The notes: generated from the letters alone by a model not told the origin. Counted from the stretch's first letter, positions 10,487 to 61,654 are shown. The stretch: DNA of 64,000 nt from an uncultured Nitrospiraceae bacterium (GCA_947085205.1 CAMTVO010000014.1:17946-81945), one strand, 5' to 3'. Made by a program: numbers and translations.

Positions 10487-10972
10487 TTATCTGCCTTTTC
10501 TGAACAAAGAAAAAAGACCTAAAACCCCTCCTGCAACAGCGCCCAGTGCAAGCGCAGAACGCCAGTCAAGGAGTGTTGTTACATTGCCGTTTATATTTTT
10601 GCCTATCATAAGTATTGAAGTGCTGTTGTTCGAATTGATATTCCTTGCGACCATGGCTCCCACAGCGCTTCTGTTTACTACTGTCTCATCGGCCGAAACC
10701 GAAACAGGTGCGAAAGAAAAGTTGAGGGTCGTAGTATTTCCGGCTGCAAGAATTCCTATGCTCTGGTTTAAAGAAAGATTTGCGCCTCTCATTAATACAG
10801 AAGCTCCCTGAGTAACCTCTACACGCTCGCCATCGATGCTCAATGCGCCGACCTGCTGCAACTCAATATGGCCGCCTTCCACAGACCTGACTGTGCTGTG
10901 CCTTATGTTCATAAACTCCGCTTCAACCATACCAAGGTTTTTATTCTCCATCTCTATTATCTCTTTTCCCAT
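10487..10972 (-). CDS. Hypothetical tail-anchored membrane protein with a beta-rich repetitive domain
   Basis: SD AAGGGGG upstream of ATG 10972. C-terminal hydrophobic helix ALALGAVAGGVLGLFSLF followed by RKGR. No family recognised. Confidence 0.5.
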   Translation of the reverse strand: MGKEIIEMENKNLGMVEAEFMNIRHSTVRSVEGGHIELQQVGALSIDGERVEVTQGASVLMRGANLSLNQSIGILAAGNTTTLNFSFAPVSVSADETVVNRSAVGAMVARNINSNNSTSILMIGKNINGNVTTLLDWRSALALGAVAGGVLGLFSLFRKGR

Positions 10973-13887: not shown

Positions 13888-13966
13888 GGCTATAGACGAT
13901 AGGCAAAAGGCAATAGGCATAAGACCACAATAATTGTTATCGCCTATCGCCCATTGCCTATTGCCT
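13888..13966. repeat. Inverted pair of AATAGGC-type arrays, valS|response-regulator spacer
   Basis: Arms at 13888-13920 and 13939-13966. Confidence 0.9.
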
Positions 13967-34259: not shown

Positions 34260-35102
34260 CTACTCCAAAAGCTTGGCCTTTTGTTCTGTATACGCTTTCT
34301 TTATAGTCTCCTGAATTCCGCTGAATTTTTCTTCAGACATGCCTAACCGTTCAAGTTCGATATTGGATACATTTACAGGCCGCCGCAAGCCGATACCGAG
34401 ATTTAAACAAACAGCATCGGCAATCTTGATCATCTCGCAAAGTGTTTCAAAATTACTGTCTTCAAAGGCAGGAAATGTTTCTAAGTGATGATACTCTATA
34501 ACCACTTCGAGGTTTTTGGGCAGCTTCCACTTTCTTGCAATAAGACCCCCAACATTGCAGTGGTTAAACCCAAGCATCTCATCCTCAACCTCTATAAAAG
34601 ACAGTCCCTCTTCATAAACCTTTTCAATAACTACAGAATACGACTCAGACATGCTGTTGTTGAGAACAGTTTTTCCAACATCGTGAATCAACCCTGCAAC
34701 AAGCGCTTCCTCAGCCTGCACCATCTTTGTCTCTGCAGCAAGGATAGATGCAGCAATAGACACGCCAAGGCTGTGTTCCCAGAGTCTCTGCTCGAAGAGA
34801 CCGAACTTCCTGTGCAAGTCCTTCAATGAGGCGGCAACCACAAGATTTTTCATGGTATTAAAGCCAATAAGAATTATTGCAGTGGATATTGTGTCTATGC
34901 TCTTGCCCCTGCCGTAATACGGCGAGTTGGCAATCCTCAGAAGCCTTGTGGAAAATGCCTGGTCTTTGGAAATAATCTTTTCGAGCTCGTTTATAGATGA
35001 GTAATCGTCATTCATAAGCTGTAAGACCTTCATTGCAACAGGAGGAAGGCTTGGAATGTCAACGGTCTCTAAAATAATTTTTTCTAATATCTCTTCTTTC
35101 AT
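34260..35102 (-). CDS. HDOD domain protein
   Basis: LPPVAMKVLQLMNDD....ELEKIISKDQAFSTRLLRIANSPYYG, typical of HDOD. Confidence 0.85.
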   Translation of the reverse strand: MKEEILEKIILETVDIPSLPPVAMKVLQLMNDDYSSINELEKIISKDQAFSTRLLRIANSPYYGRGKSIDTISTAIILIGFNTMKNLVVAASLKDLHRKFGLFEQRLWEHSLGVSIAASILAAETKMVQAEEALVAGLIHDVGKTVLNNSMSESYSVVIEKVYEEGLSFIEVEDEMLGFNHCNVGGLIARKWKLPKNLEVVIEYHHLETFPAFEDSNFETLCEMIKIADAVCLNLGIGLRRPVNVSNIELERLGMSEEKFSGIQETIKKAYTEQKAKLLE

Positions 35103-36361
35103 GCCGTCCCCTCATACCTCATATACTCTTCCCCTGCCTTAAGCTGAGCATCGAGCCTCACATCATTGAGGTGCTTAAAATATGTGCTTGCGACACTCAC
35201 AATACTTGGGTCGAGGCTATTGTTTTTAGCCATGCCTTCTATTATTCTCAAAGCCTCCTTTCCACTCATCCCTTTTCTGTAAGGTCTGTCCTCTGTTATT
35301 GCAGTAAAGACATCAGCTACTGCCATAATCCTTGAGCCAATTGGCAACTTATTGCCCTTTATATGGAACGGATAGCCGTCACCATCCATCCGTTCATGGT
35401 GAAAGGATGCCCATGTATTAATTATATCAAACCCTTTCACAGATTCCAGTATTCTGAAGGAATGATAAACATGACTTTTCATTATATTGAATTCTTCCAC
35501 TGAAAGTTTTGCAGGTTTTTCGAGTATTTCTGCCGGAACAGCCAATTTGCCGACGTCGTGGAGATAACCTGCAACAGACATCATCCGACACTCCATCTCT
35601 GAAAAACCTATCATCTGTGCCAGTAATGTAGCCACTGCACTTACACCTGCTGAATGAACTGCTGTAAATGAACTTCTATAATCCACAATATTACTGAAAA
35701 GTTTAGCAATACTTAGAAGGCCTTCCATATCCAGCTCTATATCAGGCAGAACATTTCTATCTAAAATTATCTGGTCAATCTCCGGCGATGTTGCATCAAA
35801 CCAGAAAGATTCTTTAGCTGATAGGTTCTCAAAGAGATCTACAAGCTCAGGCATAAATATTTTATTTGAGCGGGATTTGACTACATTCACTATGCTTTTG
35901 CTCTGACTCAGCACCTCCTGATGTTTATCAATAAGCACTTCTATCCTGTCAGCAAGATAGATGATATGGCCGCCAATAGGGACGTCTTCTCCATTAAACC
36001 TGCGACCTTCGCCTTCTGCCCATGGGATATGATGGTAACGAATAAGCTTAGAAACAGATGGAAATATGTCAAAGTCCTTAATAAGCAAATATCCCCTTTC
36101 AGCATGCAGGTAAGGGTTTTTAATCTCAAATTCGAGGGAATCAATCTTTTCATGCTCTGAAAAAACACCAATGTCATGAATTGCTGATGCTAAAAATATA
36201 TCATTTATCTCCTGTCGTGAAAGCCCTGATTCCTTTGCTATCTCACTGGCAATTACAGCCACCCTCAGATGGTGATTGGCAACTTTTGGATTAACAAAAT
36301 CCAGTGCCCTTGAAAAGGAAAGGATCAGGTCAGATAGTTTTATTCTTATGTTACCAATCAT
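35099..36361 (-). CDS. HD-GYP domain protein (tandem HD domains; c-di-GMP phosphodiesterase candidate)
   Basis: HDIGV and HDVGKLAVP HD motifs plus HHERMDGDGYP. ATGA overlap with the HDOD gene. Confidence 0.85.
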   Translation of the reverse strand: MIGNIRIKLSDLILSFSRALDFVNPKVANHHLRVAVIASEIAKESGLSRQEINDIFLASAIHDIGVFSEHEKIDSLEFEIKNPYLHAERGYLLIKDFDIFPSVSKLIRYHHIPWAEGEGRRFNGEDVPIGGHIIYLADRIEVLIDKHQEVLSQSKSIVNVVKSRSNKIFMPELVDLFENLSAKESFWFDATSPEIDQIILDRNVLPDIELDMEGLLSIAKLFSNIVDYRSSFTAVHSAGVSAVATLLAQMIGFSEMECRMMSVAGYLHDVGKLAVPAEILEKPAKLSVEEFNIMKSHVYHSFRILESVKGFDIINTWASFHHERMDGDGYPFHIKGNKLPIGSRIMAVADVFTAITEDRPYRKGMSGKEALRIIEGMAKNNSLDPSIVSVASTYFKHLNDVRLDAQLKAGEEYMRYEGTA

Positions 36362-36393
36362 AACTTTGTATCATCACTCCATTACTCCATTAT

Positions 36394-38367
36394 TTACGCC
36401 TCAGCCTCGAGCTTCGTCAGTATGGAGATTATCTCATCAACCAATCTCACTGATTCTGTCACACGAAGCTTTATTGATTCCCTGTCTCCTTTTTTCGCAG
36501 CTTCGTAAGCCTTCAATCCGAGTTCATGCAGTCTGCTGTGAGGCGACTCGAGATCTCTGAATAAACTGCGATTTCCGAACAACTCTCTTCCCTCTCCGTA
36601 ATACCATGCGCCCATCCTCGATTTATCTGCATGCAGCTCATCAGGACCGACTGATATTTCCTTTGCATCAAGGAGGTTCAGAATCCTGTGAAGCCACAAA
36701 ACATAATCTGCCTTAAGCACACCTATTCTCATTTTAGGGTCGTTAAAACCATCCAGCAAGCTTAAAAATTCCTTTGCATCGGTGCTGAATTTATTAAAGG
36801 ACAATGCCATGTCCTTGACTGTCTTAGAGCTCCCCTTTGCATCTTCCGCAATGTTGGTTAAGTTGCTCGATATTTCGGTTGCAGTAGCCGACTGTTCCTC
36901 CGTAGCGGTGACCACCTGATGAATCATGTCTGAGACCTTTTCAAAACTTTCGTATATTTGCATAAATGCGCCTTCCAGACGTCGCGCAATCTCACCTGTA
37001 ACTTTAGACTTTTCAACTGCCACATCCATTATATCTGTGGCATCAACCGTGCCTGCATGTATAGAGCTCAAAATATTGTTTATCTCGGATGTTGCGTTTG
37101 CAGTCCTCTGCGCAAGCTTCCTCACCTCGTCAGCAACTACCGCAAATCCCCTTCCCTGCTCCCCTGCCCTTGCAGCCTCTATTGCGGCATTCAGGGCGAG
37201 GAGGTTTGTCTGGTCCGCTATATCCTTTATCATTACCACTATCTCGTCTATTTTCTTTGAAAATTCGGACAGATCCTTTACCTTGCCCGATGCCTTTTCT
37301 ATCTGCGTATTCACTTCGTCTATGGAAGATACCGTTTCATTGATCATCCCCTTACCTTGAGACGATGCTGTTTTTGCGCGCTCTGCCGCCTGCGATGCGA
37401 TATTTATATTGCGCGCTATGTCGCCTATGGTAGACGACATCTCCTCTGTTGCAGTTGCAGCAGTAGTTGTGCGTTCAAGGTCTTTATCAACCCTCTGCGA
37501 TACATCCTTGCCGTAAAGGGTAAGGTTGACGGCATCCTTTAGGATATGAACCGTCTTGCCCGCCACATCCCTCATAACATGCCTCATTGCCTTTATTATG
37601 CTCGTTACATCTTCCGCCACCTTCCCGAACTCGTCGGCGGTCTTTGATTCAATCCTGACTGTAAGGTCGCCTTTTGCAACCTTCCCTGCAGATGCGCTGA
37701 TATCGTGCAGGACACTGATGACATACCTGTTGACAAACCAGAAAGAGAACGCAAAAGCTATAGAGAATACCACGAGAACAATTACTGCCACAGAGACTGT
37801 GGTCGTCTTGATTTCTCTCTTAATAGTATCCATGCTATTGACAAATTCTTTTCTTGAGTCTTCTATAATTTCGTCCATCATTCCTAAAAATATCTTTGAC
37901 CTTTCCGCTTGCACGGTCCCGACTATTTTTAGCATATCGTTGATTCTTTCCGATTTGATTAAGGCAATCACTTCACCTTTAATGGTCTGCAAAAAAGGCG
38001 CTATCGCCTTTTCCATTTCTACGGTTTTATCCTTATACCTGCCTTTTTTTAATTCTTCGGTATTTCTTAAAATTTTATCCGAAAGAGAGACGATAACGCC
38101 CTCCTGCGCTTCCCATACATCTGGGTCTTTTGCCAAGCTCATCCTCAAAAATGCAGCCCTTATTCCGTTAATATCTGCCTTGATCTGGGTTATCAGTTGA
38201 ATGTCGTTGCTCATAGTATTCATGGAATCGTATTTCGATTTGATGCTCATGAAATTGACGCCTATCAATCCTAATATCCCGAATATCAGGGCAGTCATAA
38301 AGATATAGCCCATCAACACCTTCTTCTTCAGGCCAATTGACAGTACTAAAGAAAACAAACCCTTCAT
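36394..38367 (-). CDS. Methyl-accepting chemotaxis protein with a C-terminal CZB-like domain
   Basis: Two TM helices, HAMP, signalling hairpin [38 protein letters not shown]-terminal ...LWLHRI...SRMGAWY...HSRLH resembles a chemoreceptor zinc-binding domain. Confidence 0.9.
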
Positions 38368-39435: not shown

Positions 39436-41889
39436 TTATACCCTAAACCAACCTGCCGTTGAATTTAATTCGGTTGCAAGTCTTGAAAGGTCTTCTGATG
39501 CACGCTTTATCTCAACAATGGAGTTGCTCAACTGTCTTGTTATTACTGCAATGCTTTCCATATTATGCGAAACCTCTTCGGAAGCGGACGATTGTTCTTC
39601 TGTTGCCGCTGCAATCCTCTGTACCATATCCGCAACCTGCTCCACGTATGTGACGATTTCGTCTATGGACTTTAATGTGCTATCTACATTGCCAATCACT
39701 TTTCCTACAGAATCTCTGTTGTCTTTCATTGAATTTACAGAATCCTTAACCTCTGTCTGCATCGTCATTACGGTGTTTGCAATGTCATCTGTAGCTGCTG
39801 TAGTCCTTTCAGCAAGCTGCCTGACACTATCAGCCACAACTGCAAATCCCCTTCCATGCTCCCCTGCCCTTGCCGCCTCTATGGCTGCATTCAATGCAAG
39901 GAGATTGGTCTGGTCGGCAATCTCTTTGATTAAGCTTATAATATCGTTTATCTCTTCTGATTTTTTACCGAGGGACTCCACCTTTTTAGAGGATTCATTA
40001 ATCGTATTCGCAAACTTCTGAAGTTCCTGCACGGTAATATGCATCGCACCTTTACCCTGCAGTGCAATCTTCTTCATTTTCTGAGCAGTCTCTGCTGTGT
40101 GTGAGGCGCTTTTTGCAACATCTAATGTGGTCTGAGACATCTCTGTCATTGCAGTTGCTGATTGCTCTATCTGCATGCTCTGCTCATTCGAGCCTTTTTC
40201 AAGCGTCGTAGATGTAGCAGACAGTTCCTCCGAGCTGCTCGCCAGCGTTCCTGTAGATGTCTTAACCTTTCCGACTATATCCCGTAGGTTTTCTACCATC
40301 TTGCACATTGACTGTTGAACCATTCCAATTTCATCCTTGCTGTGTTCATCCTTGGAGCATGTAAGGTTACCCTGCGCAATCTGCTCAGCTCCCCAGATAA
40401 GTTCATTTAAAGGCTTTGAAACAGAACGATAAACCCATGTGCCAAAGGCAATCCCGAATACAATTGCTCCGATTCCTATGGCGATAATCAGAATCGTGCT
40501 GAACCTTACCATCTTGTTTACAGTACCGATGGCCTTTTCCTGCTCGCCCTGGGCTGTCGTTACGGTTTCCTTGCCCTTTGCTGCCTGCTTCAATACTATC
40601 TCCCTCAATCTCTCCGTGGCCTGCAAGGCCTTTTCTTTCATAGAAATCTGATGACGAATCTTTGCGATTATGCCGTCTTTTGCAAATAAAAGGCTCCGCA
40701 CTGAACTTAGCGCAGACTGTGTATTGTGAAGTATCTTGATCTCTTCCCTTGCATCGAGTTTCAAGAGAAATTTTTCGAGACTCTTACCTGTAGAGTCTAT
40801 CTTCTCGTATATCTTCTTAATCTCAGCATCAACAACATCGACCTCTTTTAGAGAATTAACAGTGAAAAGCCTTGCAGTCAGACCTTCTACGGATAAACCA
40901 AGCAAGATGAGTTCCGAATTTCCCGCCATCACGTTTGTTGCAATATTAGCCTGAGTAAAGACACCTCCCTGTTTTTTTGTCTCAACTCCATATCTATCGC
41001 TTGCAGAAACGACCTCCTGCTCTATGGTCAGCAAAAGAGCCGAAAGCTTCTCGCTAACTTCTTTATTTATAGCTTCAAAGCGGTTTTTGGTTTCTTCATT
41101 CGCCTGTCCTAAGATGGCTGTCTGGAGTTTGGTAAGCTCTTCTATTTTCTCTCCAAGCGTCTTGACATCAGAGTAAATAGTCTTGGAGTCTTTTGAATAT
41201 TCGTTCTGGAGCGCCTTATTTATGGCAGAGTTAATCTTGCCTCTGGCAATGATTACTGTCTTTTTGTCCTGAGCCTTCTGTATCTCAAAGACAGCAAGCT
41301 GGAGGTCTTTCAGTGTTGCCTTCAACAGTTCTATATTCCTGAGTTTCGATGAAATACCCTTTGTATCCTCCAGAGATGTCACAAAGGCTGCCGAACGATT
41401 GAGCTGAAGCCCCTTTATCTTTGTATCCAGTTCCTTCAATCTGTTCGATGCTTCCTTCAACTTCTTTGTAATTGTTTTGTTTGCTGTGCCGGCATCTTCT
41501 TCTGCATTGAGTCTTCCCTCTGTTATATCAAAAAGTTCCTTTGCTATACGGCTTAATTCATTGTGGGTCTCCATCTTTGCGCCTCCGGACAGGGCTTCCA
41601 ATGCGTCCTGAATGCTTTTAACCTCTGACAGAGATTTTTCCGCTTCGGTGCGGTAGGTCTTATATTCCTCCACATTTGTAGAAGCGCTCACATTGACAAG
41701 GTCGGCAGTAGTGCCCTGAATGGTTCTCTGAAATTCAACCGTCCTCAGCTGAAACGGAGTGCTCCGCTCTGTAAGATAAAAAAGCTTGCTCTTTACAAAT
41801 CCCATGCCTATCACGCTCGTTGCAGCAACAGCGCCGATTATTATAAGCACTGCTATTACGTTCCATGTAAGTTTAGTCTTAATTGTCAT
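39436..41889 (-). CDS. Methyl-accepting chemotaxis protein with a very long (~430 aa) helical periplasmic region
   Basis: TM1 near aa 10-32, TM2 near aa 465-490, HAMP, signalling hairpin [37 protein letters not shown]. Confidence 0.9.
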
Positions 41890-41972: not shown

Positions 41973-42734
41973 CTATTTTATATGCTTCTGTCCTTCGCCC
42001 TTGATAAAGTCTATGAGCTTCTGTACATTTGGAGATGGTTTGCCTTTAGTAACAAGGATTATTGGTCTTGCCACTTCAGGGGTCTCAGGAGACTTTATAG
42101 TAGCATCCACTACCGCTGCCGGACCAATCCCCACTGCTTCAGGATTTGATGTAATATTCTGCCTTACGTCTTCTGCAGTGGTTGCTTCAAGAACATCCTT
42201 TGTCTGGGATTCTCCATCAAGCATGTTTTTTATAAATAAACTGTTAGTACCGGGAATAAGCTTACCCCACACCACTATTATAGGCATGTCTTTGCCGCCC
42301 ACATCTTTCCAGTTGGCTATTTTGCCGGTGAATATACCTTTTAACTGCTCCTTTGAAAGCTTTGAGACAGGGTTATCTTTATGCACGAGTACAATAATCT
42401 TATCTTTTCCAATGGTTACCTGCTGAAGTGATGCAGGGTCCTTAACCTCTGCCCCCTCTTTTTTCATAAGATTCATCCAGTCATCAAAGGTAAGACCTGC
42501 TGCTGCTGCATCAACAGCGCCTTTTTCCAAATCCATTAAGGCAATCTTAGGCCCTGAAGCAATAATGGTAAGCCTTACCCCTATAGCCCTCTCAAATGGC
42601 TCCTTTATAGGCTTTAACACATTCTCTGTCGGTGCGGCCCCTGCCCCAATCTTTACCTCGTCTGCAAAGACGGCGAGGCTAAAGGTCAACAGAAAAACAA
42701 ATGCAACTGCTAAAATCAGTCTAAATCTCTTCAT
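41973..42734 (-). CDS. PstS-family (PBP_like_2) periplasmic substrate-binding protein
   Basis: Signal peptide ends VFA|D. LKGIFTGKIANWKDVGG motif, typical of phosphate-type binding proteins. SD GGAGG. Confidence 0.75.
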   Translation of the reverse strand: MKRFRLILAVAFVFLLTFSLAVFADEVKIGAGAAPTENVLKPIKEPFERAIGVRLTIIASGPKIALMDLEKGAVDAAAAGLTFDDWMNLMKKEGAEVKDPASLQQVTIGKDKIIVLVHKDNPVSKLSKEQLKGIFTGKIANWKDVGGKDMPIIVVWGKLIPGTNSLFIKNMLDGESQTKDVLEATTAEDVRQNITSNPEAVGIGPAAVVDATIKSPETPEVARPIILVTKGKPSPNVQKLIDFIKGEGQKHIK

Positions 42735-42780: not shown

Positions 42781-43053
42781 TTATCTACGCTTCCGTTTTA
42801 CTTGTGCAGTATGAACTTCTGTATTGTTCCTATGGGCAATAAGTTCCTCATGAATCATGTCTGTCTTCTGCTTTAGCCCAGATATATCCTTTTTCATATC
42901 CTGCTGCTGGTCAATTACAAAACCAATGTTCTTCTGAAATTCTTCCAAAAGAATCCCGGTGTGTCTCCTGAATTCTTCTTTTATCTCCTTAAATTCTTCC
43001 TTTACCTCTTGGTTAAATTCTTCAAAGTCCTTTTTCGTAACATAATCATCCAT
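42781..43053 (-). CDS. Hypothetical 90-aa coiled-coil protein
   Basis: ORF between cheW-cheZ and the binding-protein gene. Second ATG (43053) has better SD spacing (AAGGGG). Charged heptad-like sequence, no family recognised. Confidence 0.45.
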   Translation of the reverse strand: MDDYVTKKDFEEFNQEVKEEFKEIKEEFRRHTGILLEEFQKNIGFVIDQQQDMKKDISGLKQKTDMIHEELIAHRNNTEVHTAQVKRKRR

Positions 43054-43069
43054 AAAAATCATCCCCTTT

Positions 43070-44245
43070 TTAGAATCCGAAGTCCTTCAGAAGGTCATCC
43101 ACATCTGCCTGTGAGACCTCTTCAGGAGTTACTTCTGCCTTTAGTCCATGTTCTATCTTTACACCAAAGGTTGCTATCAGTTTTACAAGCTCCTCCTCTA
43201 TGTCGCCTACAAGCTTAATCACCTTCTTTATTGTCTGGCCCGTAATGTCCTGAAAGGACTGCGCGGTAAGTATCTCTGTAAAGTCGTCTTCAAGCCTGTT
43301 CTTGAAATTCTTTAAATATGCAACCGATTCTTCCGGTTCTTTCAGGTTTCTTATGTGTGTGGCAAGGTCGTCCATGCCGATTATATATTTTTCTACAATA
43401 CCCATAGTCTTGTTTGCTGCATCTTCTGTCTTTTCTATAACAAACTGGAGTTTGTCAACAGCATTGGGCATATCTGTTACTGCCATATCCTTAAGTCGAG
43501 GGTCTATGGCCTCCTTAAAGCTCTTTATAGCGTCGTGAAGCTTCCTCGTAACCTTCCCGACCTCTTTAAAGAGGTCGCTCTGGCCTTTATTCATTATGTT
43601 CTGGATAGTGCTGTCCGCCTTTTCGTAATCCTGCGTTGCAATGGCATTCATAAAACTGATCATATCGTCAAAAAGGGCGTATCTCGGATCATTAGCGCTT
43701 ATACCCCTTTTCTCAAAAAAGTCCTTTGCATCCATTACTTCTTTAACAACCATCTCTCCGCCCATTCCTTCTATCTTCTTTACCACCTCAACCTTATCCC
43801 CGATTTCCTTTACCTCAAAGACCTCGTCTTCAAAGATACTCATGTCCTCCACAGGAATAAGCTTCCTTGTGTCTAAAAGCACTACAAGCTTATCGCCAAC
43901 CTTTGCGACGCCTGAGACAATATCGGATGCATTAAAGTCGGTAGGAGGCTCTATCTCCGACTCCTCTATCGTAATAACTCCTGTTATACTGTCAACCAGA
44001 ACTCCAAAGGTAATACGGCCGCTGGTGACAACGATTACCTTTTCTCCGACTGTTCCGCCATTTAAACCCGCGAGCCTCTTAAGATCCACCACAGGTATTA
44101 TTCTCCCCCTGAGATTTGCAATTCCCTCGATATAACCCGGCGACTGAGGCAGTTTCGTAAGAGACGGAAAATTTATAATCTCCTGAACCTTCAGAATCGG
44201 TATTGTGTATTCATTGTTATTCATTGTAAAGCCTATATACTGCAT
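43070..44245 (-). CDS. CheW-domain / CheZ-phosphatase fusion protein
   Basis: aa 1-140 form a CheW domain (IEGIANLRGRIIPVVDLKRL). The C-terminal ~215 aa align by eye to E. coli CheZ: VGKVTRKLHDAI, MPNAVDKLQFVIEKTEDAANKT, catalytic box AQSFQDITGQTIKKVI (D and Q conserved), CheY-binding tail ADVDDLLKDFGF. SD GGAGGG. Confidence 0.85.
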   Translation of the reverse strand: MQYIGFTMNNNEYTIPILKVQEIINFPSLTKLPQSPGYIEGIANLRGRIIPVVDLKRLAGLNGGTVGEKVIVVTSGRITFGVLVDSITGVITIEESEIEPPTDFNASDIVSGVAKVGDKLVVLLDTRKLIPVEDMSIFEDEVFEVKEIGDKVEVVKKIEGMGGEMVVKEVMDAKDFFEKRGISANDPRYALFDDMISFMNAIATQDYEKADSTIQNIMNKGQSDLFKEVGKVTRKLHDAIKSFKEAIDPRLKDMAVTDMPNAVDKLQFVIEKTEDAANKTMGIVEKYIIGMDDLATHIRNLKEPEESVAYLKNFKNRLEDDFTEILTAQSFQDITGQTIKKVIKLVGDIEEELVKLIATFGVKIEHGLKAEVTPEEVSQADVDDLLKDFGF

Positions 44246-44268
44246 ATATACCCTCCGTAAACGTAAAA

Positions 44269-46014
44269 TTATTTACTGCTCGTTTTAAATATGCTCCTCG
44301 AAACAACCGCAAGGTCAAGGATTAACACAACCTTTCCATCGCCTGTAATAGTAGCTCCAAGAATGCCGCAGGCTTCGGACTCTATACCGTTAATTGTCTT
44401 AATGACTACCTCCTCCTGACCTAACAACTCATCCACAGAAATGCAGAACCTCCTGTCTCCAACAGTGGCGACAAGGACATAATTGTTGTCATGTTCAACT
44501 TCAGACCTTCTTCTTACTCCTAAGACCTCTGACATCTCAAACAGTGGCAATACCCTGCCCCTTATGGTCAGCACCTTCTGCCCTGTTACATCCTTGATGT
44601 CGCTCTTTTTGACCCTGAGCGTCTCTTCTATCATTGACTGCGGTATTGCATAAAACTCGTCTCCGATTCTCACCATCATTGCCTGAAGTATTGCGAGCGT
44701 CAGAGGCAGGCTTATTCTGAATGTGCTTCCGACATCCCTTTTGGTCATTACTTCGACATATCCGTTCAGCTTTGCCACATTTGTTTTTACCACGTCCATT
44801 CCGACTCCGCGGCCGCTCAGTTCTGTAGAGACCTCTTTTGTAGAAAAGCCGGGCAGGAATATGAGATTGATTGCAGCATCGTCCGGCATCCTCTGCGCTT
44901 CATCTTCGGATATGAGGCCCTTTCCAATAGCCTTTCTCTTTACGGCCTCGACATCGATGCCTTTGCCGTCGTCGGATACCTCTATGACAATCTGGGTTCC
45001 CTTCTGATAGGCGCTTAAGATTATTCTCCCCTTCTTGGGCTTGCCTTTCATTTCCCGATCTTCCGCATACTCGATTGCGTGGTCTATGGAGTTTCTTATG
45101 ATATGCACAAGCGGATCGCCGATATTCTCTATCACCGTCTTATCCACTTCGGTATCCTCTCCGAACATTTCAAGATCTATATCCTTGCCGAGATTTCTCG
45201 ACATGTCTCTTACCATTCTGGGGAACTTGCCGAAGACCTTCTGGATGGGCTGCATCCTCATCTTCATTACGGCAAGCTGAAGATCTGACGTCATCCTGTC
45301 CAGAAAACCGGTGGTCTCAAGGAGACTTTCCACCTGCGGGTCCCCGGAATAGTTAAGTTCGAGTTTCGCGGCAAGGTTCAAGAGCCTGTTTCTGACAAGG
45401 ACTATTTCCCCGGCCAGGTCCATTACCTTATCTATCCTCGATACGTCAACCCTCAGCGTTGAGACTACTTCCTTCTCCTTTGTTATCTGCTGCACCTGCT
45501 CTTCTGCCGCAGGCTGTGGCTGAGGTTTGGGTTTAGGCTCAGGTTTCGGTGGCGGCATAATCTCGACACGGGGTTCGGGTTTAGGTTCAATCTTTATTTC
45601 AACCTTCTCAGGCGCCCCTCCTGCTAATGCCGTCTCCTGCGCAGAATCAAGCTCCCTTAAAAGGTCCGATGTATCTTCTTCTATGCCGTCTTTCAGCTTT
45701 ATATGAAATATCAGAAGCCTCAGTGTATCCACGCTCTTGAGTATTACATCCATCAATTCCCTCGAAAGCGCTATCTCGCCGTCGCGCAGCCTCTTCATTA
45801 TGCTCTCTGCCCTGTGGGCAACATCAACTATCAGCTGAAAACCAAGGAAACCGGCTGCACCTTTAAGGGTATGCATTCCGCGGAATATCTCATTGAGGAT
45901 ATCTTTGTCATATCCTTTGGTCTCCAACTCCACAAACATGGGGTCGATCTTTTCCAGAGTCTCTTCAGCCTCTGTAACAAATTCGCTTATAATCTCATCC
46001 ATCTCATCAGCCAT
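44269..46014 (-). CDS. cheA: Chemotaxis histidine kinase CheA
   Basis: Hpt (MHTLKGAAGFLG), dimerisation, HATPase (GRGVGMDVV) and C-terminal CheW-like domains. A Pro/Lys-rich linker (PKPEPKPKPQPQP) sits where a P2 domain would be. Confidence 0.95.
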   Translation of the reverse strand: MADEMDEIISEFVTEAEETLEKIDPMFVELETKGYDKDILNEIFRGMHTLKGAAGFLGFQLIVDVAHRAESIMKRLRDGEIALSRELMDVILKSVDTLRLLIFHIKLKDGIEEDTSDLLRELDSAQETALAGGAPEKVEIKIEPKPEPRVEIMPPPKPEPKPKPQPQPAAEEQVQQITKEKEVVSTLRVDVSRIDKVMDLAGEIVLVRNRLLNLAAKLELNYSGDPQVESLLETTGFLDRMTSDLQLAVMKMRMQPIQKVFGKFPRMVRDMSRNLGKDIDLEMFGEDTEVDKTVIENIGDPLVHIIRNSIDHAIEYAEDREMKGKPKKGRIILSAYQKGTQIVIEVSDDGKGIDVEAVKRKAIGKGLISEDEAQRMPDDAAINLIFLPGFSTKEVSTELSGRGVGMDVVKTNVAKLNGYVEVMTKRDVGSTFRISLPLTLAILQAMMVRIGDEFYAIPQSMIEETLRVKKSDIKDVTGQKVLTIRGRVLPLFEMSEVLGVRRRSEVEHDNNYVLVATVGDRRFCISVDELLGQEEVVIKTINGIESEACGILGATITGDGKVVLILDLAVVSRSIFKTSSK

Positions 46015-46016
46015 TT

Positions 46017-46424
46017 TTATCCCCCTGCCTTCAAAGATGTTTTCTTGTCCGCTATCTTTTCGAGTTTCTCTTTCAGCACCTCGGCTGTAAACGGCTTGAC
46101 GATATAATTATCAACGCCTGCCTTAATCGCTTCAATAACCTTCTCCTTCTCAGCCTCGGCAGTTACCATGAGAAACGGTATATCCTTCAACGGTTCAGCC
46201 TCCTGCCTGATAGTTCTGAGGAGGTCTATACCCTCCATATTAGGCATGTTCCAGTCAGATACAACAAGCCCGTAATTTCCGCTCCTAAGCTTGTTAAGCG
46301 CCTGTGTGCCATCCTCTGCCTCATCTATATTTTCAAAACCTATCTGTTTTAATAGGTTTTTGATTATCCTTCTCATAGTCGGGAAGTCGTCAACCACAAG
46401 CACCTTGATGCCAAAATTAAACAT
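46017..46424 (-). CDS. cheY: Chemotaxis response regulator CheY
   Basis: [28 protein letters not shown] motifs. ATG 46424 with SD GGAGGTGA preferred over upstream GTG 46433. Confidence 0.9.
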
Positions 46425-46809
46425 TACCCTCACCTCCAGAGCTAAATATCTTTTTAAGAATCTTTTTTATGCTGTCATTTATCTGGTCTGCGTTCGTAGG
46501 TTTGACTAAATAATCATCGGCGCCTGCCTCAAACGCCCTTTTTTTCTCATCCTCATCCGCCTCGGTAGTAACCATAACAATAGGAATGCTGCTTAGAATC
46601 GGGTCTGATTTCAAGTTTTTTGTAAACTCTATGCCGTCCATATAAGGCATATTCATATCGGTAAGAATAAAATTGATATTCTCTGTTCCGACTTTTTCCA
46701 TTGCATCAAGTCCGTTTTCTGCTGTTACCACCTCGTATCCCTTCCCCTTGAGATATAAACTTAGCAGCTTTCTTGTAGTTTTGTCATCGTCAACAACCAA
46801 TATCTTCAT
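46417..46809 (-). CDS. CheY-like single-domain response regulator (second copy)
   Basis: [28 protein letters not shown] motifs. SD AGGAGG. Confidence 0.85.
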
Positions 46810-46828: not shown

Positions 46829-47659
46829 TTATACCTTCTGATAGACAATAACTTTATTAATAACAACAGGTCTGAAAGCCCTCGTCACATTGTGAAGACT
46901 CTCAGACGTACCCACAAACAAATAACCGTTAGGCCTTAATGCATCGTATAAGTTGGAAACAGCCTTCTGTTTTGCCTTATCATCAAAGTATATGAGAACA
47001 TTCCTGCAGAATATTACATCGGCTCCGCGCATTGTCCTGACATCTTTATCATCGATGAGGTTAATCCTCATAAATTTGGTTATGGATTTTACGCTATGTG
47101 ATATGGAATACTGCTGATTGGCATTAGTGAAATATTTTTTTAAATATGCATCCGGGATATTTCTGATCGCATAAGAACCATAGACGCCTGACTTTGCAGA
47201 GCTCAAAACAGATTCGCTTATATCCGAGGCATATATCTCTTTTCTAATCATGGTAGCTTCAGGCTTCTCAAGGAGTATCATTGCAATCGTATAAGCCTCT
47301 TCTCCTGTTGAAGCAGCTGCAGACCATATCTTTATGTCTTTGCGGCCTGCTTTGGCATTTTCAGCTAACATACGGTTAAAGATCTCTCCTCCAAAAACAT
47401 CGAACTGCTGCGGCTCCCTGAAAAAAAAGGTCTCATTTGTGGTAACTAAATTAAACAATATGTCCTGTTCATTCTTATCCGCGCTGTATTTCAGGATGTA
47501 AAGGTAATCCTCGTATCCTTTCAGGTTCTTTTCCTGAACTCTTCTTCCGAGCCTGTTTTCCAGAAAATATTTCTTGTTGTCCGGAATGAAGATGCCGCTC
47601 CTCTCGTATATAAAATCCCTCAGTTGTTTGAAAATATCGTCTGTCATCAATAAACTCAT
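46829..47659 (-). CDS. cheR: Chemotaxis protein methyltransferase CheR
   Basis: TTNETFFFRE, IWSAAASTGEE, IFCRNVLIYFD motifs. ATGA overlap with the upstream HEAT gene. Confidence 0.95.
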   Translation of the reverse strand: MSLLMTDDIFKQLRDFIYERSGIFIPDNKKYFLENRLGRRVQEKNLKGYEDYLYILKYSADKNEQDILFNLVTTNETFFFREPQQFDVFGGEIFNRMLAENAKAGRKDIKIWSAAASTGEEAYTIAMILLEKPEATMIRKEIYASDISESVLSSAKSGVYGSYAIRNIPDAYLKKYFTNANQQYSISHSVKSITKFMRINLIDDKDVRTMRGADVIFCRNVLIYFDDKAKQKAVSNLYDALRPNGYLFVGTSESLHNVTRAFRPVVINKVIVYQKV

Positions 47660-49503
47660 AGAGAGTTTAATGCCTCCTTTATCTTATCTCTCACATCAGC
47701 ATTCGGATGCTCCTCGTGAGCAGCCAATGCCTCATATGCGGCACTTCCGCCTATCTCCTTGATAGCATCTATTGCGGACATGACAACAGGGATAAATTCG
47801 TCGTGCAGCATCGTGCTTATCATGCTTATGGCCTTTTCCCTTTCGCAGGAAAACGCTATCGCCTTAATGGTATAAAACCTTACCCATGGGTCGTCATCCT
47901 GAAGCGCATTGAAAAGCTCCGCTGAGCAGTATCTCGCTTCTCCGAGTCCTACGACAGAGGCCTTTCTTATATCGGCGTCTGCGTCTCCTAAAAACCAGAT
48001 AAGCCTCGATACCGCTTTGTCCGTGCCGAGCCGGCCAAGGCCGTATATTGCGGCAATCTTCACCTTTTTATTCGGGTCGTCGGCAAGGCTTAGAAGAATA
48101 TCCACATCAAACACGGTCTTTGCTATCACTTCCCTTACTGTATCGCGATACCTCGAAATATTCGACAGAAATGCTCCGGCGTCTATCTTTATCAGGGCCT
48201 CAACAATCTTTTCAATAACATCGTAATATTTCTCGACCTCCAATAAATCCATCAGCGGCTTAAATGCATCCTGCGACTGTATGTTTCCGAGAGCCTCTAT
48301 GGCAGAGCGTCTGACATGGGCATCCACATCCTTTACTGAAATCTCAAGCAGATACTCTGTAGGTGCTGGCTCTCTTATTTCCCCGAGGGCTTCTGCAGAC
48401 GCCCTCCGGAGGTCCCTGCTGATGTCTGTCAGATAGTTGAGCAATCTCGATACGGCCTTTTTGCTCCTTGTAGTTCCGAGTATTTCTATGGCGAATGATT
48501 TTCCCCTGTATTTCATGTCGGGAGACTCCAGAAGCTTCAGCAGCTCTTCTTCAGAATCCATAGCGCTTACAGCGTCCATTAACAAGGTTATTCTTTCTTC
48601 GCTTTCGGGCAATGATGGATCAAGAGAGCCGGCAATATCAACTATCACAGGAACTGCCTCTCTGCAATTGAAGGAAACAATGCCCTTCAATGCTATTTCC
48701 TTTTCCTCCCAATCACCCTCTTTGAGCATCTTTATGAGGTGTCCTGACAAATCAGCCATTTCAGGGGTAATTCCTATCTGAATCAGGCTTTTTATGGCTG
48801 CATTTCCTTCATCTTCCGATGCCTTCGGCAAATATGACAGAAGCGCATCCACAGCCTTTTCAGAGCCGAGTTTTCCAAGTGTTTCGATAGCAGCGAAACG
48901 GACTGCTTCAGATGAATTAGAAAGCAGGGATGCTATATCGCTTACAGCCTCCTCAGCCTTTAACTCTCCGAGTGCATCCAGGGCAGAAAAACACACCCAC
49001 TCTTCATCTTTAAGGGCCTTTATTAATTCTGGAATAGCCTCCCTGTACCCCAATAAGCCAAGGCTTTTTGCAGCAGTAGCCCTTACATTTGCATTCGGGT
49101 CTTTAAGAAAAGGTACAATTTTAGAGGGCTCAACTCCTTTCTTTATATCCCCCATAAGGTCAATAGCAAACTTCCTTACATCATCATCCTTGTCCTCTAA
49201 TAATGGATAAAGAAGGGGAATCACAATTTCTCCCAGCGCCGTAAGAATAATCAAAGCAGTATTTCTGAGATAGGAGTTTTCCCTCAATAACGGCAATACC
49301 ATGTAACCGACAACCTCTCCGCCTATGGTAATGAGAGAGCGCATAGAAGCGTCCTGAACGCCTGCATTTTCATCGCTCAGCGCCTTAATAAGCGGGAATA
49401 TCGCCCGCTCGTCACCTTCCGATAACTCTTCCGCTGCCCTCCTTCTGAGAGAAGGATCTTTATCGCTGAGTCTCTGAATCAGCTTTTTAATATTCTTGAC
49501 CAT
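47656..49503 (-). CDS. HEAT-repeat (PBS-lyase-type) protein, 615 aa
   Basis: More than 12 repeats of the pattern D.D..VR..A..ALG.IG...A...L. First gene after a sigma70-like promoter. Confidence 0.8.
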   Translation of the reverse strand: MVKNIKKLIQRLSDKDPSLRRRAAEELSEGDERAIFPLIKALSDENAGVQDASMRSLITIGGEVVGYMVLPLLRENSYLRNTALIILTALGEIVIPLLYPLLEDKDDDVRKFAIDLMGDIKKGVEPSKIVPFLKDPNANVRATAAKSLGLLGYREAIPELIKALKDEEWVCFSALDALGELKAEEAVSDIASLLSNSSEAVRFAAIETLGKLGSEKAVDALLSYLPKASEDEGNAAIKSLIQIGITPEMADLSGHLIKMLKEGDWEEKEIALKGIVSFNCREAVPVIVDIAGSLDPSLPESEERITLLMDAVSAMDSEEELLKLLESPDMKYRGKSFAIEILGTTRSKKAVSRLLNYLTDISRDLRRASAEALGEIREPAPTEYLLEISVKDVDAHVRRSAIEALGNIQSQDAFKPLMDLLEVEKYYDVIEKIVEALIKIDAGAFLSNISRYRDTVREVIAKTVFDVDILLSLADDPNKKVKIAAIYGLGRLGTDKAVSRLIWFLGDADADIRKASVVGLGEARYCSAELFNALQDDDPWVRFYTIKAIAFSCEREKAISMISTMLHDEFIPVVMSAIDAIKEIGGSAAYEALAAHEEHPNADVRDKIKEALNSL

Positions 49504-59965: not shown

Positions 59966-61654
59966 TTACCTCTTTATCGCCATCAGCTCATTCAACAAAT
60001 CATCTGTGGTTGTAATAACCCTCGTATTCGCCTGAAAGCCCCTCTGATACGCAATCATCTTCACAAACTCTTCTGCAAGGTCAACATTGGATGTCTCGAG
60101 AGAACCAGCCATAACCCTTCCCCTTCCCGATGTATTAGGAGAGCCTATGATCGGACTGCCTGAAGCAGCCGATTCAGTATAAAGGTTTCTTCCCTGTTTT
60201 GAAAGCTGGGTGGAGGCTATAAACCTTGCAAGATAAATCTCTGCAATCTTTAATGTCTGTCCGTTGGTAAATGAGCCGACCATCGTGCCTGTATTATCAA
60301 TTATAAGGCTCTTCAAACTTCCTGATGAATATCCGTCCTGTTGCTGGAATATGACAGAGGAGGCAGAGCCATATTGGGTAGTCTTATCCTGACCGCTTCC
60401 GCCTGCTGATGTGCCTGTTCCGAAGTCAAAGCTTATCGCCTGCCCCTGTGTCACGCCTCCTGCAAAGTCAAATGCCTGGCCCGTTGTCTGTCCATACTGC
60501 TGAATATCTCTGACAAGCTTTCCGTTTGTGTCGAACTCAAGATAGCCCTGCCCTCCAACCTGTATCTGCCCTTGAGTACTGTCTGCAGACTGTGTAATAG
60601 CATACCAGTGCCATCTGTTTCCTGTGGTTGTCTCTGCGCCGGCGCCATCGAGGTCAACAGATTCAGCGGTCTTTCTAAAATATACGGTAACAAGATGTCC
60701 GTAACCGAGTGAGTCATAAACAGTGATCGATGTAGTAAAATCAGATGTATTTGCTGCATTCAGAGGGTCGAACCCTACTGCTGCATAATCAGCCGTAAAT
60801 GAAGCGGCTGCCGCAGAAGGTCTAACAGACCTGAAACCCAGGATCTGTTCTATTGTTGTGTTTGTGTCTGCCAATTCAGGAGTAAAAGCGCCGGCAGCTT
60901 TGGATATTACAAATTTCGGAGGTCTGCCATCAGTGCCGGCCGTATAGCCAACAGTAAAATTCCTATCAGCTAAAGGTATCGGCTCAGCATTCAGGGCGCC
61001 TTGAACTGCAGTTGCAAGTCCTGAACCATCGTAAGTGCCTGTAGCAATACTTACAGTATAATCGGTCCCTCCTATGTCAACCACGAGGGTTCTATTCGAT
61101 GCGTCGATAGTAAATGAATCTGCAGTTCCTGAAAGAGGGTCTTTGGAGGTTGTAGCTGAATTAAGGTTCGCTGATACCTCAACATTAGCGGTCTGCTTTG
61201 GCGGGCTGTTAAGAGATGCTATATTTATAGTGCTTACCTGCCCAGCCTGAGTTCCTGTCAACAGTTTGCCTTGCAAGCGCAATCCATCGGGATTGACAAT
61301 ATTGCCGCTGCTGTCAAGATTAAACTGACCTGCCCTCGTGTAGTACTGGGCACCGGAAATGTCCGTCAGAATAAAAAATCCGTCTCCCTCTATTGCCATA
61401 TCGAGCGGATTGGACGAACTCTCGAGGCTCCCCTGATTAAATATCGCCTGAACATTACTGATGAATGTGCCCCTTCCTACCTGAAAGGCAGCTCCGCCTC
61501 CTAAAGAAGAGCTCAAAACATCCGCAAATACAGTCCTGCTGCCTTTAAACCCGATGGTATTTGAGTTTGCTATATTGTCGCCTACAACAGAAAGCGCCTG
61601 TCCGTTTGTGCTAAGTCCACTTACTCCTGTAAAAAGTGATGTCAACATTCCCAT
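59966..61654 (-). CDS. flgE: Flagellar hook protein FlgE (562 aa, long variant)
   Basis: N-terminal GDNIANSNTIGFK, DGFF, YTRAG.F. C-terminal SNVDLAEEFVKMIAYQRGFQAN. SD AAGGAGG. Confidence 0.9.
   Translation of the reverse strand: MGMLTSLFTGVSGLSTNGQALSVVGDNIANSNTIGFKGSRTVFADVLSSSLGGGAAFQVGRGTFISNVQAIFNQGSLESSSNPLDMAIEGDGFFILTDISGAQYYTRAGQFNLDSSGNIVNPDGLRLQGKLLTGTQAGQVSTINIASLNSPPKQTANVEVSANLNSATTSKDPLSGTADSFTIDASNRTLVVDIGGTDYTVSIATGTYDGSGLATAVQGALNAEPIPLADRNFTVGYTAGTDGRPPKFVISKAAGAFTPELADTNTTIEQILGFRSVRPSAAAASFTADYAAVGFDPLNAANTSDFTTSITVYDSLGYGHLVTVYFRKTAESVDLDGAGAETTTGNRWHWYAITQSADSTQGQIQVGGQGYLEFDTNGKLVRDIQQYGQTTGQAFDFAGGVTQGQAISFDFGTGTSAGGSGQDKTTQYGSASSVIFQQQDGYSSGSLKSLIIDNTGTMVGSFTNGQTLKIAEIYLARFIASTQLSKQGRNLYTESAASGSPIIGSPNTSGRGRVMAGSLETSNVDLAEEFVKMIAYQRGFQANTRVITTTDDLLNELMAIKR

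What the first reader, a model, noticed from the sequence alone, without database searches (positions are those of the whole stretch)
43070..44245. CheW-CheZ fusion: the coupling protein carries the CheY-P phosphatase
The N-terminal 140 aa are a standard CheW domain. The C-terminal ~215 aa match E. coli CheZ at all landmarks I can recall: the TRxLHD helix, the DARDRL-like segment, the catalytic DxxxQ box (SFQDITGQ) and the C-terminal CheY-binding peptide (DDLLKDFGF versus DDLLDSLGF). No stand-alone cheW is present in this cluster. The phosphatase would therefore be built directly into the receptor array, instead of being recruited through CheA-short as in E. coli. I am not aware of a characterised CheW-CheZ fusion, and CheZ itself is usually regarded as largely proteobacterial.
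Basis: partly seen in the sequence, partly recalled or inferred. Interest (0 to 1): 0.72.

Follow-up and report, generated by a model that had tools for sequence, protein, structure and literature searches.

The report
Conserved CheW–CheZ fusion protein in Nitrospirota
This is a real gene, conserved across a whole bacterial lineage, that joins a chemoreceptor-array adaptor domain (CheW) to the signal-terminating phosphatase CheZ; it probably anchors the phosphatase at the receptor array, an uncharacterised but mechanistically unsurprising variant of known chemotaxis wiring.

Summary
Window 43070-44245 (-) is one uninterrupted 391-aa ORF with a CheW domain (Pfam 118.6 bits), an acidic linker of about 35-50 aa, and a complete CheZ (Pfam 121 bits; profile alignment to E. 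coli CheZ 1KMI_Z, E = 6e-33). The catalytic Asp/Gln (D333/Q337) and the end of the C-terminal CheY-binding peptide are invariant in 94 homologues.

It is not an assembly artefact. The same architecture is full length in at least 80 species-representative genomes (124 confirmed matches), almost all Nitrospirota (Thermodesulfovibrionales, Dissulfurispiraceae). It always sits in the order fliA-HEAT-cheR-REC-cheY-cheA-cheWZ-cheB inside the flagellar regulon.

The window has no other CheW, CheV, CheC, CheX or CheD. However, 22 of 80 related loci carry a separate cheW in the cluster. The closest complete genome (Dissulfurispira thermophila, fusion 83% identical) has a stand-alone cheW 1.28 Mb away. 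The fusion is therefore probably not the sole coupling protein.

Most likely it is an array-tethered CheY-P phosphatase, a hard-wired equivalent of E. coli's CheA-short-mediated CheZ localisation. I found no paper that describes it, although databases already annotate it as CheZ. Verdict: new variant of a known kind, moderate interest.

The parts
43070..44245 (-). cheW-cheZ fusion gene (391 codons plus stop)
   Evidence: Single ORF. Pfam CheW and CheZ both far above their cut-offs. Over 120 full-length homologues.
44251..44256 (-). GGAGGG ribosome-binding site, 5 nt upstream of the ATG and 23 nt after the cheA stop
   Evidence: Read directly from the sequence.
43856..44242 (-). CheW-type adaptor domain (residues 2-130)
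   Evidence: Pfam PF01584, 118.6 bits. PDB CheW hits down to 9e-22. Foldseek TM 0.77-0.87 to CheW structures. The positions equivalent to E. coli CheW V36/E38/I39/G57/R62/G63/G99/V108 are conserved.
43751..43855 (-). Acidic Glu/Val/Lys-rich interdomain linker (residues ~131-165); the boundaries are approximate
   Evidence: pLDDT below 50 over 139-189. Composition. Short CheZ relatives without a CheW domain begin aligning at about residue 166-182. The junction motif EDMSxFEDEVFEV is conserved as protein.
43073..43750 (-). CheZ module (residues ~166-391): N-terminal helices, long helical hairpin 249-299/305-360, flexible tether 361-377, terminal helix 379-388
   Evidence: Pfam PF04344, 121 bits. 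A profile of this subfamily aligns with E. coli CheZ 1KMI_Z residues 11-214, E = 5.9e-33. AF2 secondary structure.
43235..43261 (-). Catalytic box QSFQDITGQ (Q329-Q337); D333 and Q337 correspond to E. coli D143 and Q147
   Evidence: HMMER alignment to 1KMI_Z 132-167. D333, T335, G336 and Q337 invariant in 94 sequences.
43073..43117 (-). C-terminal CheY-binding peptide VSQADVDDLLKDFGF (residues 377-391)
   Evidence: Aligned to the E. coli CheZ C-terminus SQDQVDDLLDSLGF in the profile search. Q379, V382, L386, G390 and F391 invariant.
44269..46014 (-). cheA (Hpt, dimerisation, HATPase and CheW-like P5 domains; no P2 hit), immediately upstream; presumed array partner
   Evidence: Pfam. Residues 100-185 are a Pro/Glu/Lys-rich linker.
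46017..46433 (-). cheY, the presumed CheZ substrate, 62% identical to E. coli CheY
46417..46809 (-). Second single-domain receiver protein (CheY-like), a possible second substrate or phosphate sink

Best explanation
This is a genuine, selectively maintained bifunctional chemotaxis protein of a Dissulfurispiraceae/Thermodesulfovibrionales (Nitrospirota) bacterium. The C-terminal ~225 residues are a complete, catalytically equipped CheZ that dephosphorylates the E. coli-like CheY-P of the flagellar chemotaxis pathway. This function is inferred from invariant catalytic residues, the CheY-binding peptide and the gene context. The N-terminal CheW domain keeps the canonical CheW receptor- and CheA-contact positions. 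It most likely inserts into the receptor/CheA/CheW lattice and carries the CheZ dimer on a flexible acidic linker of about 35-50 residues. CheY-P would then be hydrolysed where it is made. This would be a hard-wired version of the kinase-phosphatase co-localisation that E. coli achieves non-covalently through CheA-short. An ordinary CheW paralogue, present in relatives, probably still provides part or most of the kinase coupling, so arrays would hold a mixture of CheW and CheW-CheZ.
For: Domains and catalytic residues. CheW fold. Canonical CheW positions conserved in the fused domain as in the stand-alone paralogue. No artefact: at least 120 protein clusters and 124 genome loci, all full length and 56-93% identical, with a conserved junction. 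Pathway context: the gene follows cheA by 23 nt inside fliA-HEAT-cheR-REC-cheY-cheA-cheWZ-...-cheB, within the flagellar regulon, and this order is conserved across the clade. CheY is 62% identical to E. coli CheY. Stand-alone CheW co-exists with the fusion: 22 of 80 loci and D. thermophila. The fused proteins form one CheZ sub-clade. The E. coli apical segment containing F98, whose F98S mutant is the non-localising CheZ, has no counterpart in this subfamily (PMC2673030; PMC1447658). The benefit of co-localisation (uniform CheY-P, sharper response) is established for E. coli (PMC2673030, which cites Vaknin & Berg and Cantwell et al.).
Against: There is no experimental evidence for localisation, array incorporation or phosphatase activity. 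The AF2 model is only moderately confident (mean pLDDT 63; the linker and parts of CheZ fall below 50). The CheZ half was not recovered by fold search. Both NCBIfam equivalog models score far below their cut-offs (78.8 against 260; 68.5 against 257), so neither half is a close orthologue of the enteric proteins. The missing hairpin apex is shared with the relatives in the A3 profile that lack a CheW domain, so it is not specific to the fusion. I could not examine the rest of this genome, so the presence of a stand-alone CheW there is extrapolated from relatives. Whether a CheZ dimer hanging from two CheW domains fits the lattice geometry is untested.
Confidence: 0.7

Rival explanations
1. Sole coupler. 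CheW-CheZ is the only coupling protein of this pathway, so every core signalling unit carries a phosphatase.
For: No other CheW or CheV is found in the 64-kb window. The closest relatives (L001, L002, L005, L008, L009, L012, L013, L016, L020) also lack one within 10 kb either side. The fused CheW domain keeps all canonical positions.
Against: A conserved stand-alone CheW paralogue lies in the cluster in 22 of 80 loci. In D. thermophila (fusion 83% identical, fully syntenic cluster) it lies 1.28 Mb away on the same chromosome.
Confidence: 0.15
2. Localisation tag only. The CheW domain docks into CheW-only rings or lattice edges and does not couple CheA to receptors. The protein would be an accessory like CheV (CheW plus a signal-terminating module), not a structural core component.
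For: It co-exists with an ordinary CheW. The fused domain and the stand-alone CheW are only 32-40% identical, so they are old paralogues with room for specialisation. The CheV precedent (CheW plus REC) comes from general knowledge.
Against: The same conserved contact positions occur in both paralogues, so sequence gives no sign that coupling ability has been lost. In the window's sublineage the cluster has lost the separate cheW.
Confidence: 0.3
3. Receptor-regulated phosphatase or CheY docking site. The covalent link lets the receptor signalling state modulate CheZ activity, or lets the CheZ C-terminal peptide replace the missing CheA P2 domain as the CheY docking site at the array.
For: This CheA has no P2 hit and only a Pro/Glu/Lys-rich linker in its place. 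The CheZ C-terminal peptide is strongly conserved. In E. coli, binding to CheA-short enhances CheZ activity (PMC2673030, which cites Wang & Matsumura).
Against: More than 50% of CheA proteins lack P2 without any such fusion (PMC10542144). The interdomain linker is long and predicted to be disordered, which argues against tight allosteric coupling. There are no data.
Confidence: 0.1
4. Artefact or decay. The fusion arises from a sequencing or assembly error joining two genes, or the CheZ half is a degenerate, inactive remnant.
For: None found.
Against: There are 124 independent genome loci and over 120 protein clusters from different assemblies and sequencing centres, all full length, with a junction conserved at the protein level. 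The catalytic D/Q and the C-terminal G-F are invariant.
Confidence: 0.01

Closest known systems
E. coli CheZ (PDB 1KMI), localised to receptor clusters through CheA-short
   Same: Homologous phosphatase module: helical hairpin, catalytic D143/Q147 equivalents, flexible tether and C-terminal CheY-binding peptide. It is paired with a CheY 62% identical to E. coli CheY. The expected outcome is the same, with the phosphatase co-localised with the kinase (PMC2673030, PMC1447658).
   Different: Here the attachment would be covalent, through an N-terminal CheW domain, rather than through non-covalent binding of the hairpin apex to CheA-short. The E. coli apical segment around W94-F98 is absent. There is an extra N-terminal helical region (residues ~187-246). 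The score is far below the NCBIfam CheZ equivalog cut-off.
CheW (E. coli, Thermotoga and Thermoanaerobacter CheW structures 2HO9, 1K0S, 2QDL)
   Same: Same fold and the same conserved contact residues.
   Different: It carries a C-terminal extension of about 260 residues. It is only 32-40% identical to the clade's own stand-alone CheW.
CheV (CheW domain fused to a receiver domain)
   Same: The same design logic: a CheW-type array adaptor fused to a module that removes phosphoryl groups from the pathway or modulates them. This is stated from general knowledge.
   Different: The partner module is a CheZ phosphatase, not a phosphorylatable receiver. No REC domain is present.
CheA-CheC/CheX fusions of Leptospira-class spirochaetes
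   Same: A CheY-P phosphatase built into a core array component, suggested to give dual kinase/phosphatase function (PMC10542144).
   Different: The phosphatase family is unrelated (CheC/CheX rather than CheZ), the carrier differs (CheA rather than CheW), and so does the phylum.
Helicobacter pylori CheZ(HP), a remote CheZ orthologue
   Same: A divergent CheZ outside the enteric paradigm that retains the catalytic motif (cited in PMC9321776 as Lertsethtakarn & Ottemann 2010).
   Different: CheZ(HP) is a stand-alone protein and is not fused to CheW. That paper was not held in the library, so I could not check the details.

Membership tests
CheW (Pfam PF01584 CheW-like domain) | Profile score above the curated gathering threshold | tested here: met
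   118.6 bits against a cut-off of 23.5, residues 2-130, profile positions 1-134 of 138.
CheW (Pfam PF01584 CheW-like domain) | CheW double beta-barrel fold | tested here: met
   In the AF2 model, residues 1-130 have block-mean pLDDT of about 57-83, mostly 70-83. Foldseek gives E = 1e-11 to 3e-13 and TM (target) 0.77-0.87 to 2QDL, 6S1K_C, 2CH4_W and 8C5V_E.
CheW (Pfam PF01584 CheW-like domain) | Conserved NLRG motif (E. coli R62/G63) and the positions V36/E38/I39, G57, G99 and V108. Their roles in receptor and CheA binding are recalled from the E. coli genetics literature, not tested here. | tested here: met
   Window V20/E22/I23/G41/R46/G47/G81/V90. These are invariant or nearly so in 25 fused sequences and equally conserved in 22 stand-alone paralogues.
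CheW (Pfam PF01584 CheW-like domain) | Physical binding to CheA P5 and receptor tips, and support of kinase activation | not testable with these tools
   This needs biochemistry or cryo-ET.
CheW equivalog (NCBIfam NF007903, enteric CheW) | Score above the equivalog cut-off | tested here: not met
   78.8 bits against 260. It is a CheW-family domain, not an orthologue of enteric CheW.
CheZ (Pfam PF04344) | Profile score above the curated gathering threshold | tested here: met
   121.1 bits against 30.7. A subfamily profile against 1KMI_Z gives E = 5.9e-33 and aligns to E. coli residues 11-214.
CheZ (Pfam PF04344) | Catalytic Asp and Gln (E. coli D143, Q147) in the DxxxQ box | tested here: met
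   D333 and Q337 align to E. coli D143 and Q147 and are invariant in 94 homologues.
CheZ (Pfam PF04344) | C-terminal amphipathic CheY-binding peptide on a flexible tether | tested here: met
   VSQADVDDLLKDFGF aligns with SQDQVDDLLDSLGF at the extreme C-terminus. Residues 361-377 are low-confidence coil and residues 379-388 form a helix. G390 and F391 are invariant.
CheZ (Pfam PF04344) | Homodimeric four-helix bundle formed by long helical hairpins | tested here: inconclusive
   A monomer hairpin is predicted (helices 249-299 and 305-360, pLDDT about 65-79). The dimer could not be modelled, and fold search did not retrieve 1KMI.
CheZ (Pfam PF04344) | CheY-P phosphatase activity | not testable with these tools
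   This needs an in vitro dephosphorylation assay.
CheZ equivalog (NCBIfam NF008368, enteric CheZ) | Score above the equivalog cut-off, and the CheA-short-binding hairpin apex (the region around E. coli F98) | tested here: not met
   68.5 bits against 257. E. coli residues ~94-109 fall in a 16-residue gap of the subfamily profile.
CheV | CheW domain fused to a receiver (REC) domain | tested here: not met
   No Response_reg hit in the protein. The analogy is one of design only.

The most novel reading that the evidence does not exclude
The covalent CheW-CheZ link may be more than a leash. Receptor signalling state, transmitted through the CheW domain, could modulate CheZ activity, and the tethered CheZ C-terminal peptide could take over CheY docking from the P2 domain that this CheA lacks. 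The array would then control both the 'push' (kinase) and the 'pull' (phosphatase) on CheY. In the window's sublineage, which has lost the cluster-encoded cheW, the fusion might even be the main coupler.
Probability: 0.12. Interest if true: 0.75.

Novelty: new variant of a known kind. Interest (0 to 1): 0.42.

Why it matters
Where the CheY-P phosphatase sits is a recognised design variable of bacterial chemotaxis. In E. coli, co-localising CheZ with CheA keeps CheY-P spatially uniform and sharpens the response, yet only about 10-20% of CheZ is cluster-bound, through the enteric-specific CheA-short (PMC2673030).

A lineage that has fused CheZ to CheW for its whole evolutionary history offers a natural case of fixed, stoichiometrically defined tethering. 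It gives independent evolutionary support for the co-localisation principle. It provides a tractable test system, because Dissulfurispira thermophila is cultured. It is also a ready-made construct for cryo-ET and synthetic-biology work on array-bound phosphatases.

The finding also shows that automatic annotation ('protein phosphatase CheZ') hides the CheW half. Chemotaxis-gene censuses of these genomes will therefore miscount CheW-domain proteins.

Tried and rejected
- **Literature searches.** Searches for 'CheW-CheZ', 'CheZ-CheW', 'CheWZ', 'fused to CheW', 'CheZ domain', CheZ with Nitrospirae, CheZ with Thermodesulfovibrio, and Dissulfurispira with chemotaxis found nothing relevant.
- **Key papers not held.** Wuichet & Zhulin 2010 (PMC3401578), Lertsethtakarn & Ottemann 2010 (PMC2907456) and Gumerov et al. 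2021 (PMC8727887) were not available. A brief mention of this architecture there cannot be excluded.
- **C-terminal peptide alone.** phmmer with only the last 39 residues against the PDB gave no hits because the query is too short. A subfamily profile search solved this.
- **Fold search.** The whole AF2 model recovered only the CheW half. The CheZ half, a set of long monomeric helices, matched only unrelated coiled coils at non-significant E-values.
- **Taxon names for divergent fusions.** The listing of cluster members returned almost no names for the divergent fusion clusters; the one named cluster is Nitrospirota. Spread beyond Nitrospirota stays unresolved. A few loci labelled Deltaproteobacteria, Smithellaceae, Methylococcaceae or Alphaproteobacteria share the same cluster or the same identity range and are probably mis-binned or mislabelled.
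- **Sequencing-error hypothesis.** Rejected.
- **Inactive CheZ remnant.** Rejected.
- **The ~80 residues between CheW and the Pfam CheZ match as a novel third domain.** Rejected. Short CheZ relatives without a CheW domain already align from about residue 166-182, so most of that stretch belongs to this CheZ subfamily's N-terminal helices and only residues ~131-165 form a linker.
- **F-class assignment.** I did not attempt to assign the system to a chemosensory F class.

Full report
**1. The observation**

The window holds an uninterrupted 391-codon ORF on the minus strand at 43070-44245. Its ATG lies 23 nt after the cheA stop codon and is preceded by a GGAGGG ribosome-binding site.

Pfam gives two strong matches: CheW (PF01584, residues 2-130, 118.6 bits against a cut-off of 23.5) and CheZ (PF04344, 121.1 bits against 30.7). 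The PDB sequence search finds CheW structures at E = 9e-22 and below, and E. coli CheZ (1KMI_Z) at 3e-8.

- TRKLHD (233-238) aligns with E. coli LTRMLRD.
- PNAVDKL (260-266) aligns with PDARDRL.
- QSFQDITGQ (329-337) aligns with QDFQDLTGQ, so D333 and Q337 correspond to E. coli D143 and Q147.
- VSQADVDDLLKDFGF (377-391) aligns with the E. coli C-terminus SQDQVDDLLDSLGF.

A profile of this CheZ subfamily aligns end to end with E. coli CheZ residues 11-214 at E = 5.9e-33.

An AlphaFold2 model has moderate confidence (mean pLDDT 63). It shows a beta-rich CheW domain (1-130), a low-confidence segment (139-189), helices at 187-246, a long helical hairpin (249-299 and 305-360), a disordered tether (361-377) and a terminal helix (379-388). 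This is the CheZ layout. Foldseek matches the N-terminal domain to solved CheW structures with TM 0.77-0.87.

**2. Not an artefact**

A search of 5.8 billion proteins returned 1288 hits. The best 120 are 64-92% identical and 334-416 aa long, mostly 387-416 (three are shorter, two of them labelled partial by NCBI). All carry both Pfam domains.

A scan of one genome per GTDB species found 124 confirmed loci. The 80 kept are 56-93% identical and nearly all cover residues 1-391 (three are cut by contig ends). Almost all come from Nitrospirota MAGs labelled Nitrospirae, Thermodesulfovibrionales or Dissulfurispiraceae.

In a 94-sequence alignment, D333, T335, G336, Q337, G390 and F391 are invariant. 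So are many CheW positions, and the junction motif EDMSxFEDEVFEV is conserved as protein. Independent assemblies cannot share a frameshift error that preserves both halves under purifying selection, so the artefact hypothesis is rejected.

**3. Context**

Pfam scans show the gene inside a large flagellar and chemotaxis regulon, all on the minus strand. In transcription order the genes are:
- fliK, flgD, two flgE-like genes, fliL, fliM, fliOP, fliR, flhB, flhA, flhF, flhG, fliA;
- a HEAT-repeat protein, cheR, a receiver protein, cheY, cheA, cheW-cheZ;
- a 93-aa ORF, a periplasmic binding protein, an 817-aa MCP, cheB, an MCP with a CZB domain, an HD-GYP-like protein, an HDOD protein;
- flgF, flgG, flgA, flgH, flgI and onward.

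The core order fliA-HEAT-cheR-REC-cheY-cheA-cheWZ-...-cheB is conserved across the clade. CheA has Hpt, dimerisation, ATPase and P5 domains, but no P2 hit and only a Pro/Glu/Lys-rich linker in that position. CheY is 62% identical to E. coli CheY. This is an E. coli-type CheY/CheZ pair driving flagella.

**4. Is it the only CheW?**

Within the window, yes. A six-frame scan with a broad CheW profile finds only the fusion (219 bits) and CheA P5 (16 bits). No CheV, CheC, CheX or CheD was found in the ORFs scanned.

In the wider clade, no. In 22 of 80 related loci a separate CheW-sized ORF of 155-223 aa lies within 10 kb, typically just after cheB.

The closest complete genome is Dissulfurispira thermophila. 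Its fusion protein P0019 is 83% identical and its cluster is fully syntenic (L081). It encodes a stand-alone 173-aa CheW about 1.28 Mb away on the same 2.445-Mb contig. The same gene is present in the isolate chromosome AP022873.1, next to a PilJ-type MCP and a GGDEF protein.

Matching contig lengths show both genes on one contig in three more close relatives. The window's sublineage has therefore lost cheW from the cluster but very probably not from the genome. That last step is an inference, because the rest of this genome is not available to me.

**5. Are both halves competent?**

The fused CheW domain retains the positions equivalent to E. coli CheW V36, E38, I39, G57, R62, G63, G99 and V108. 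They are as well conserved there as in the clade's stand-alone paralogue. Their roles in receptor and CheA binding are recalled from the E. coli literature and were not tested here.

The CheZ half has the invariant catalytic pair and the CheY-binding peptide. Both halves are thus under selection for their canonical functions.

**6. Relationships of the CheZ half**

An exhaustive HMMER search of 1.84 billion cluster representatives with residues 150-391 gave 1408 clusters at E <= 1e-3.
- Twenty of the best 150 have an N-terminal CheW domain, and these dominate the top of the list.
- In a neighbour-joining tree, all 17 fused tips fall in one clade of 30 of 144 tips. Some short members of that clade are truncated gene calls.
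- One divergent fused protein (P0253) sits in a different genomic context with two separate cheW genes nearby. Whether this is an independent fusion is unresolved.
- Short CheZ relatives without a CheW domain start aligning at residue ~166-182 of the fusion. The true interdomain linker is therefore only residues ~131-165, and it is acidic and predicted to be disordered.

**7. Mechanism**

In E. coli, part of the CheZ pool is held at the receptor cluster by CheA-short. The non-localising mutant is CheZ F98S, and anchoring is thought to occur through the apical helices. Co-localisation makes CheY-P spatially uniform and sharpens the response (PMC2673030, PMC1447658).

In the profile alignment, E. 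coli residues ~94-109 (WDDWF98...) fall in a 16-residue gap of this subfamily. An E. coli-style apex is therefore not available for localisation. This also holds for the subfamily members in the profile that lack a CheW domain, so it is consistent with the model but not specific to the fusion.

The most economical reading is as follows. The CheW domain plugs into the receptor/CheA/CheW lattice. The CheZ module dimerises below the baseplate on its flexible linkers. CheY-P is destroyed at its source.

- Shown: domain identity, residue conservation, genomic context and co-existence with CheW.
- Inferred: array docking, dimer geometry, and which of the two receiver proteins is the substrate.

**8. 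Comparison with known systems and novelty**

The parts are ordinary members of the CheW and CheZ families, though neither is an equivalog of the enteric protein. The combination resembles CheV in design (CheW plus a signal-terminating module). It also resembles the CheA-CheC/CheX fusions reported in Leptospira-class spirochaetes (PMC10542144).

I found no publication that describes or tests a CheW-CheZ protein. Databases already hold hundreds of these sequences. NCBI labels them 'protein phosphatase CheZ', and JGI labels them CheZ, with a dual CheW/CheZ name for a few.

I therefore rate it a new variant of a known kind. It is real, lineage-wide, uncharacterised and mechanistically predictable.
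- the protein is probably not the only coupler;
- the architecture is common within its lineage and already catalogued;
- CheZ outside Proteobacteria is not new in itself;
- the predicted function follows directly from the parts.

Noticed in passing
Proteins P0188, P0224, P0231, P0141, P0152, P0165, P0167, P0235, P0172, P0187: Other uncharacterised CheZ fusions appear among the nearest CheZ relatives. These are HATPase_c plus CheZ proteins of 538-708 aa (possibly kinase-like/CheZ hybrids), one FKBP_C plus CheZ protein, and a larger group with N-terminal extensions of about 140-300 aa (before the Pfam CheZ match) that have no Pfam match.
   Followed up: partly
window 44269-46014 (-): The cluster's CheA has no P2/CheY-binding domain hit. 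Residues 100-185 form a Pro/Glu/Lys-rich low-complexity linker between Hpt and the dimerisation domain.
   Followed up: partly
window 46017-46433 (-) and 46417-46809 (-): CheY is 62% identical to E. coli CheY, which is striking for a Nitrospirota genome. A second CheY-like receiver gene overlaps its start by 17 nt. Which of the two is the motor-binding CheY or a phosphate sink is unknown.
   Followed up: partly
window 47656-49503 (-): A 615-aa HEAT/PBS-lyase-repeat protein overlaps cheR by 4 nt. It is conserved between fliA and cheR in every related locus examined. Its role in this chemotaxis system is unknown.
   Followed up: no
window 42781-43062 (-); L081 9678-9986 and 11206-11574: A 93-aa ORF with no Pfam match starts 7 nt after the fusion gene. 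Its conservation is patchy (L003, L007, L081). In D. thermophila two paralogous copies flank the cheW-cheZ gene.
   Followed up: partly
window 34260-38367 (-): An MCP with a C-terminal CZB zinc-binding domain, an HD_5 (HD-GYP-like) protein and an HDOD protein sit between cheB and flgF inside the flagellar cluster. This hints at a link to c-di-GMP or redox sensing.
   Followed up: no
window 41973-42734 (-) and 39436-41889 (-): A PBP_like_2 periplasmic binding protein lies directly upstream of an 817-aa MCP whose large N-terminal region has no Pfam match. The two may form a binding-protein/receptor pair.
   Followed up: no
L082 and L083 10001-14309 (Dissulfurispira thermophila): The stand-alone cheW of the nearest complete genome lies next to a PilJ-HAMP-MCP-CZB receptor and a 6TM-GGDEF protein, far from the flagellar cluster.
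   Followed up: no
window 59966-61654 (-) and 61676-62992 (-): Two adjacent FlgE-like hook genes of 562 and 438 aa.
   Followed up: no
window 13958-14920 (-) and 10487-10972 (-): A 320-aa protein has an N-terminal receiver domain and an output region of about 200 aa with no Pfam match. A separate 161-aa ORF has no Pfam match at all.
   Followed up: no
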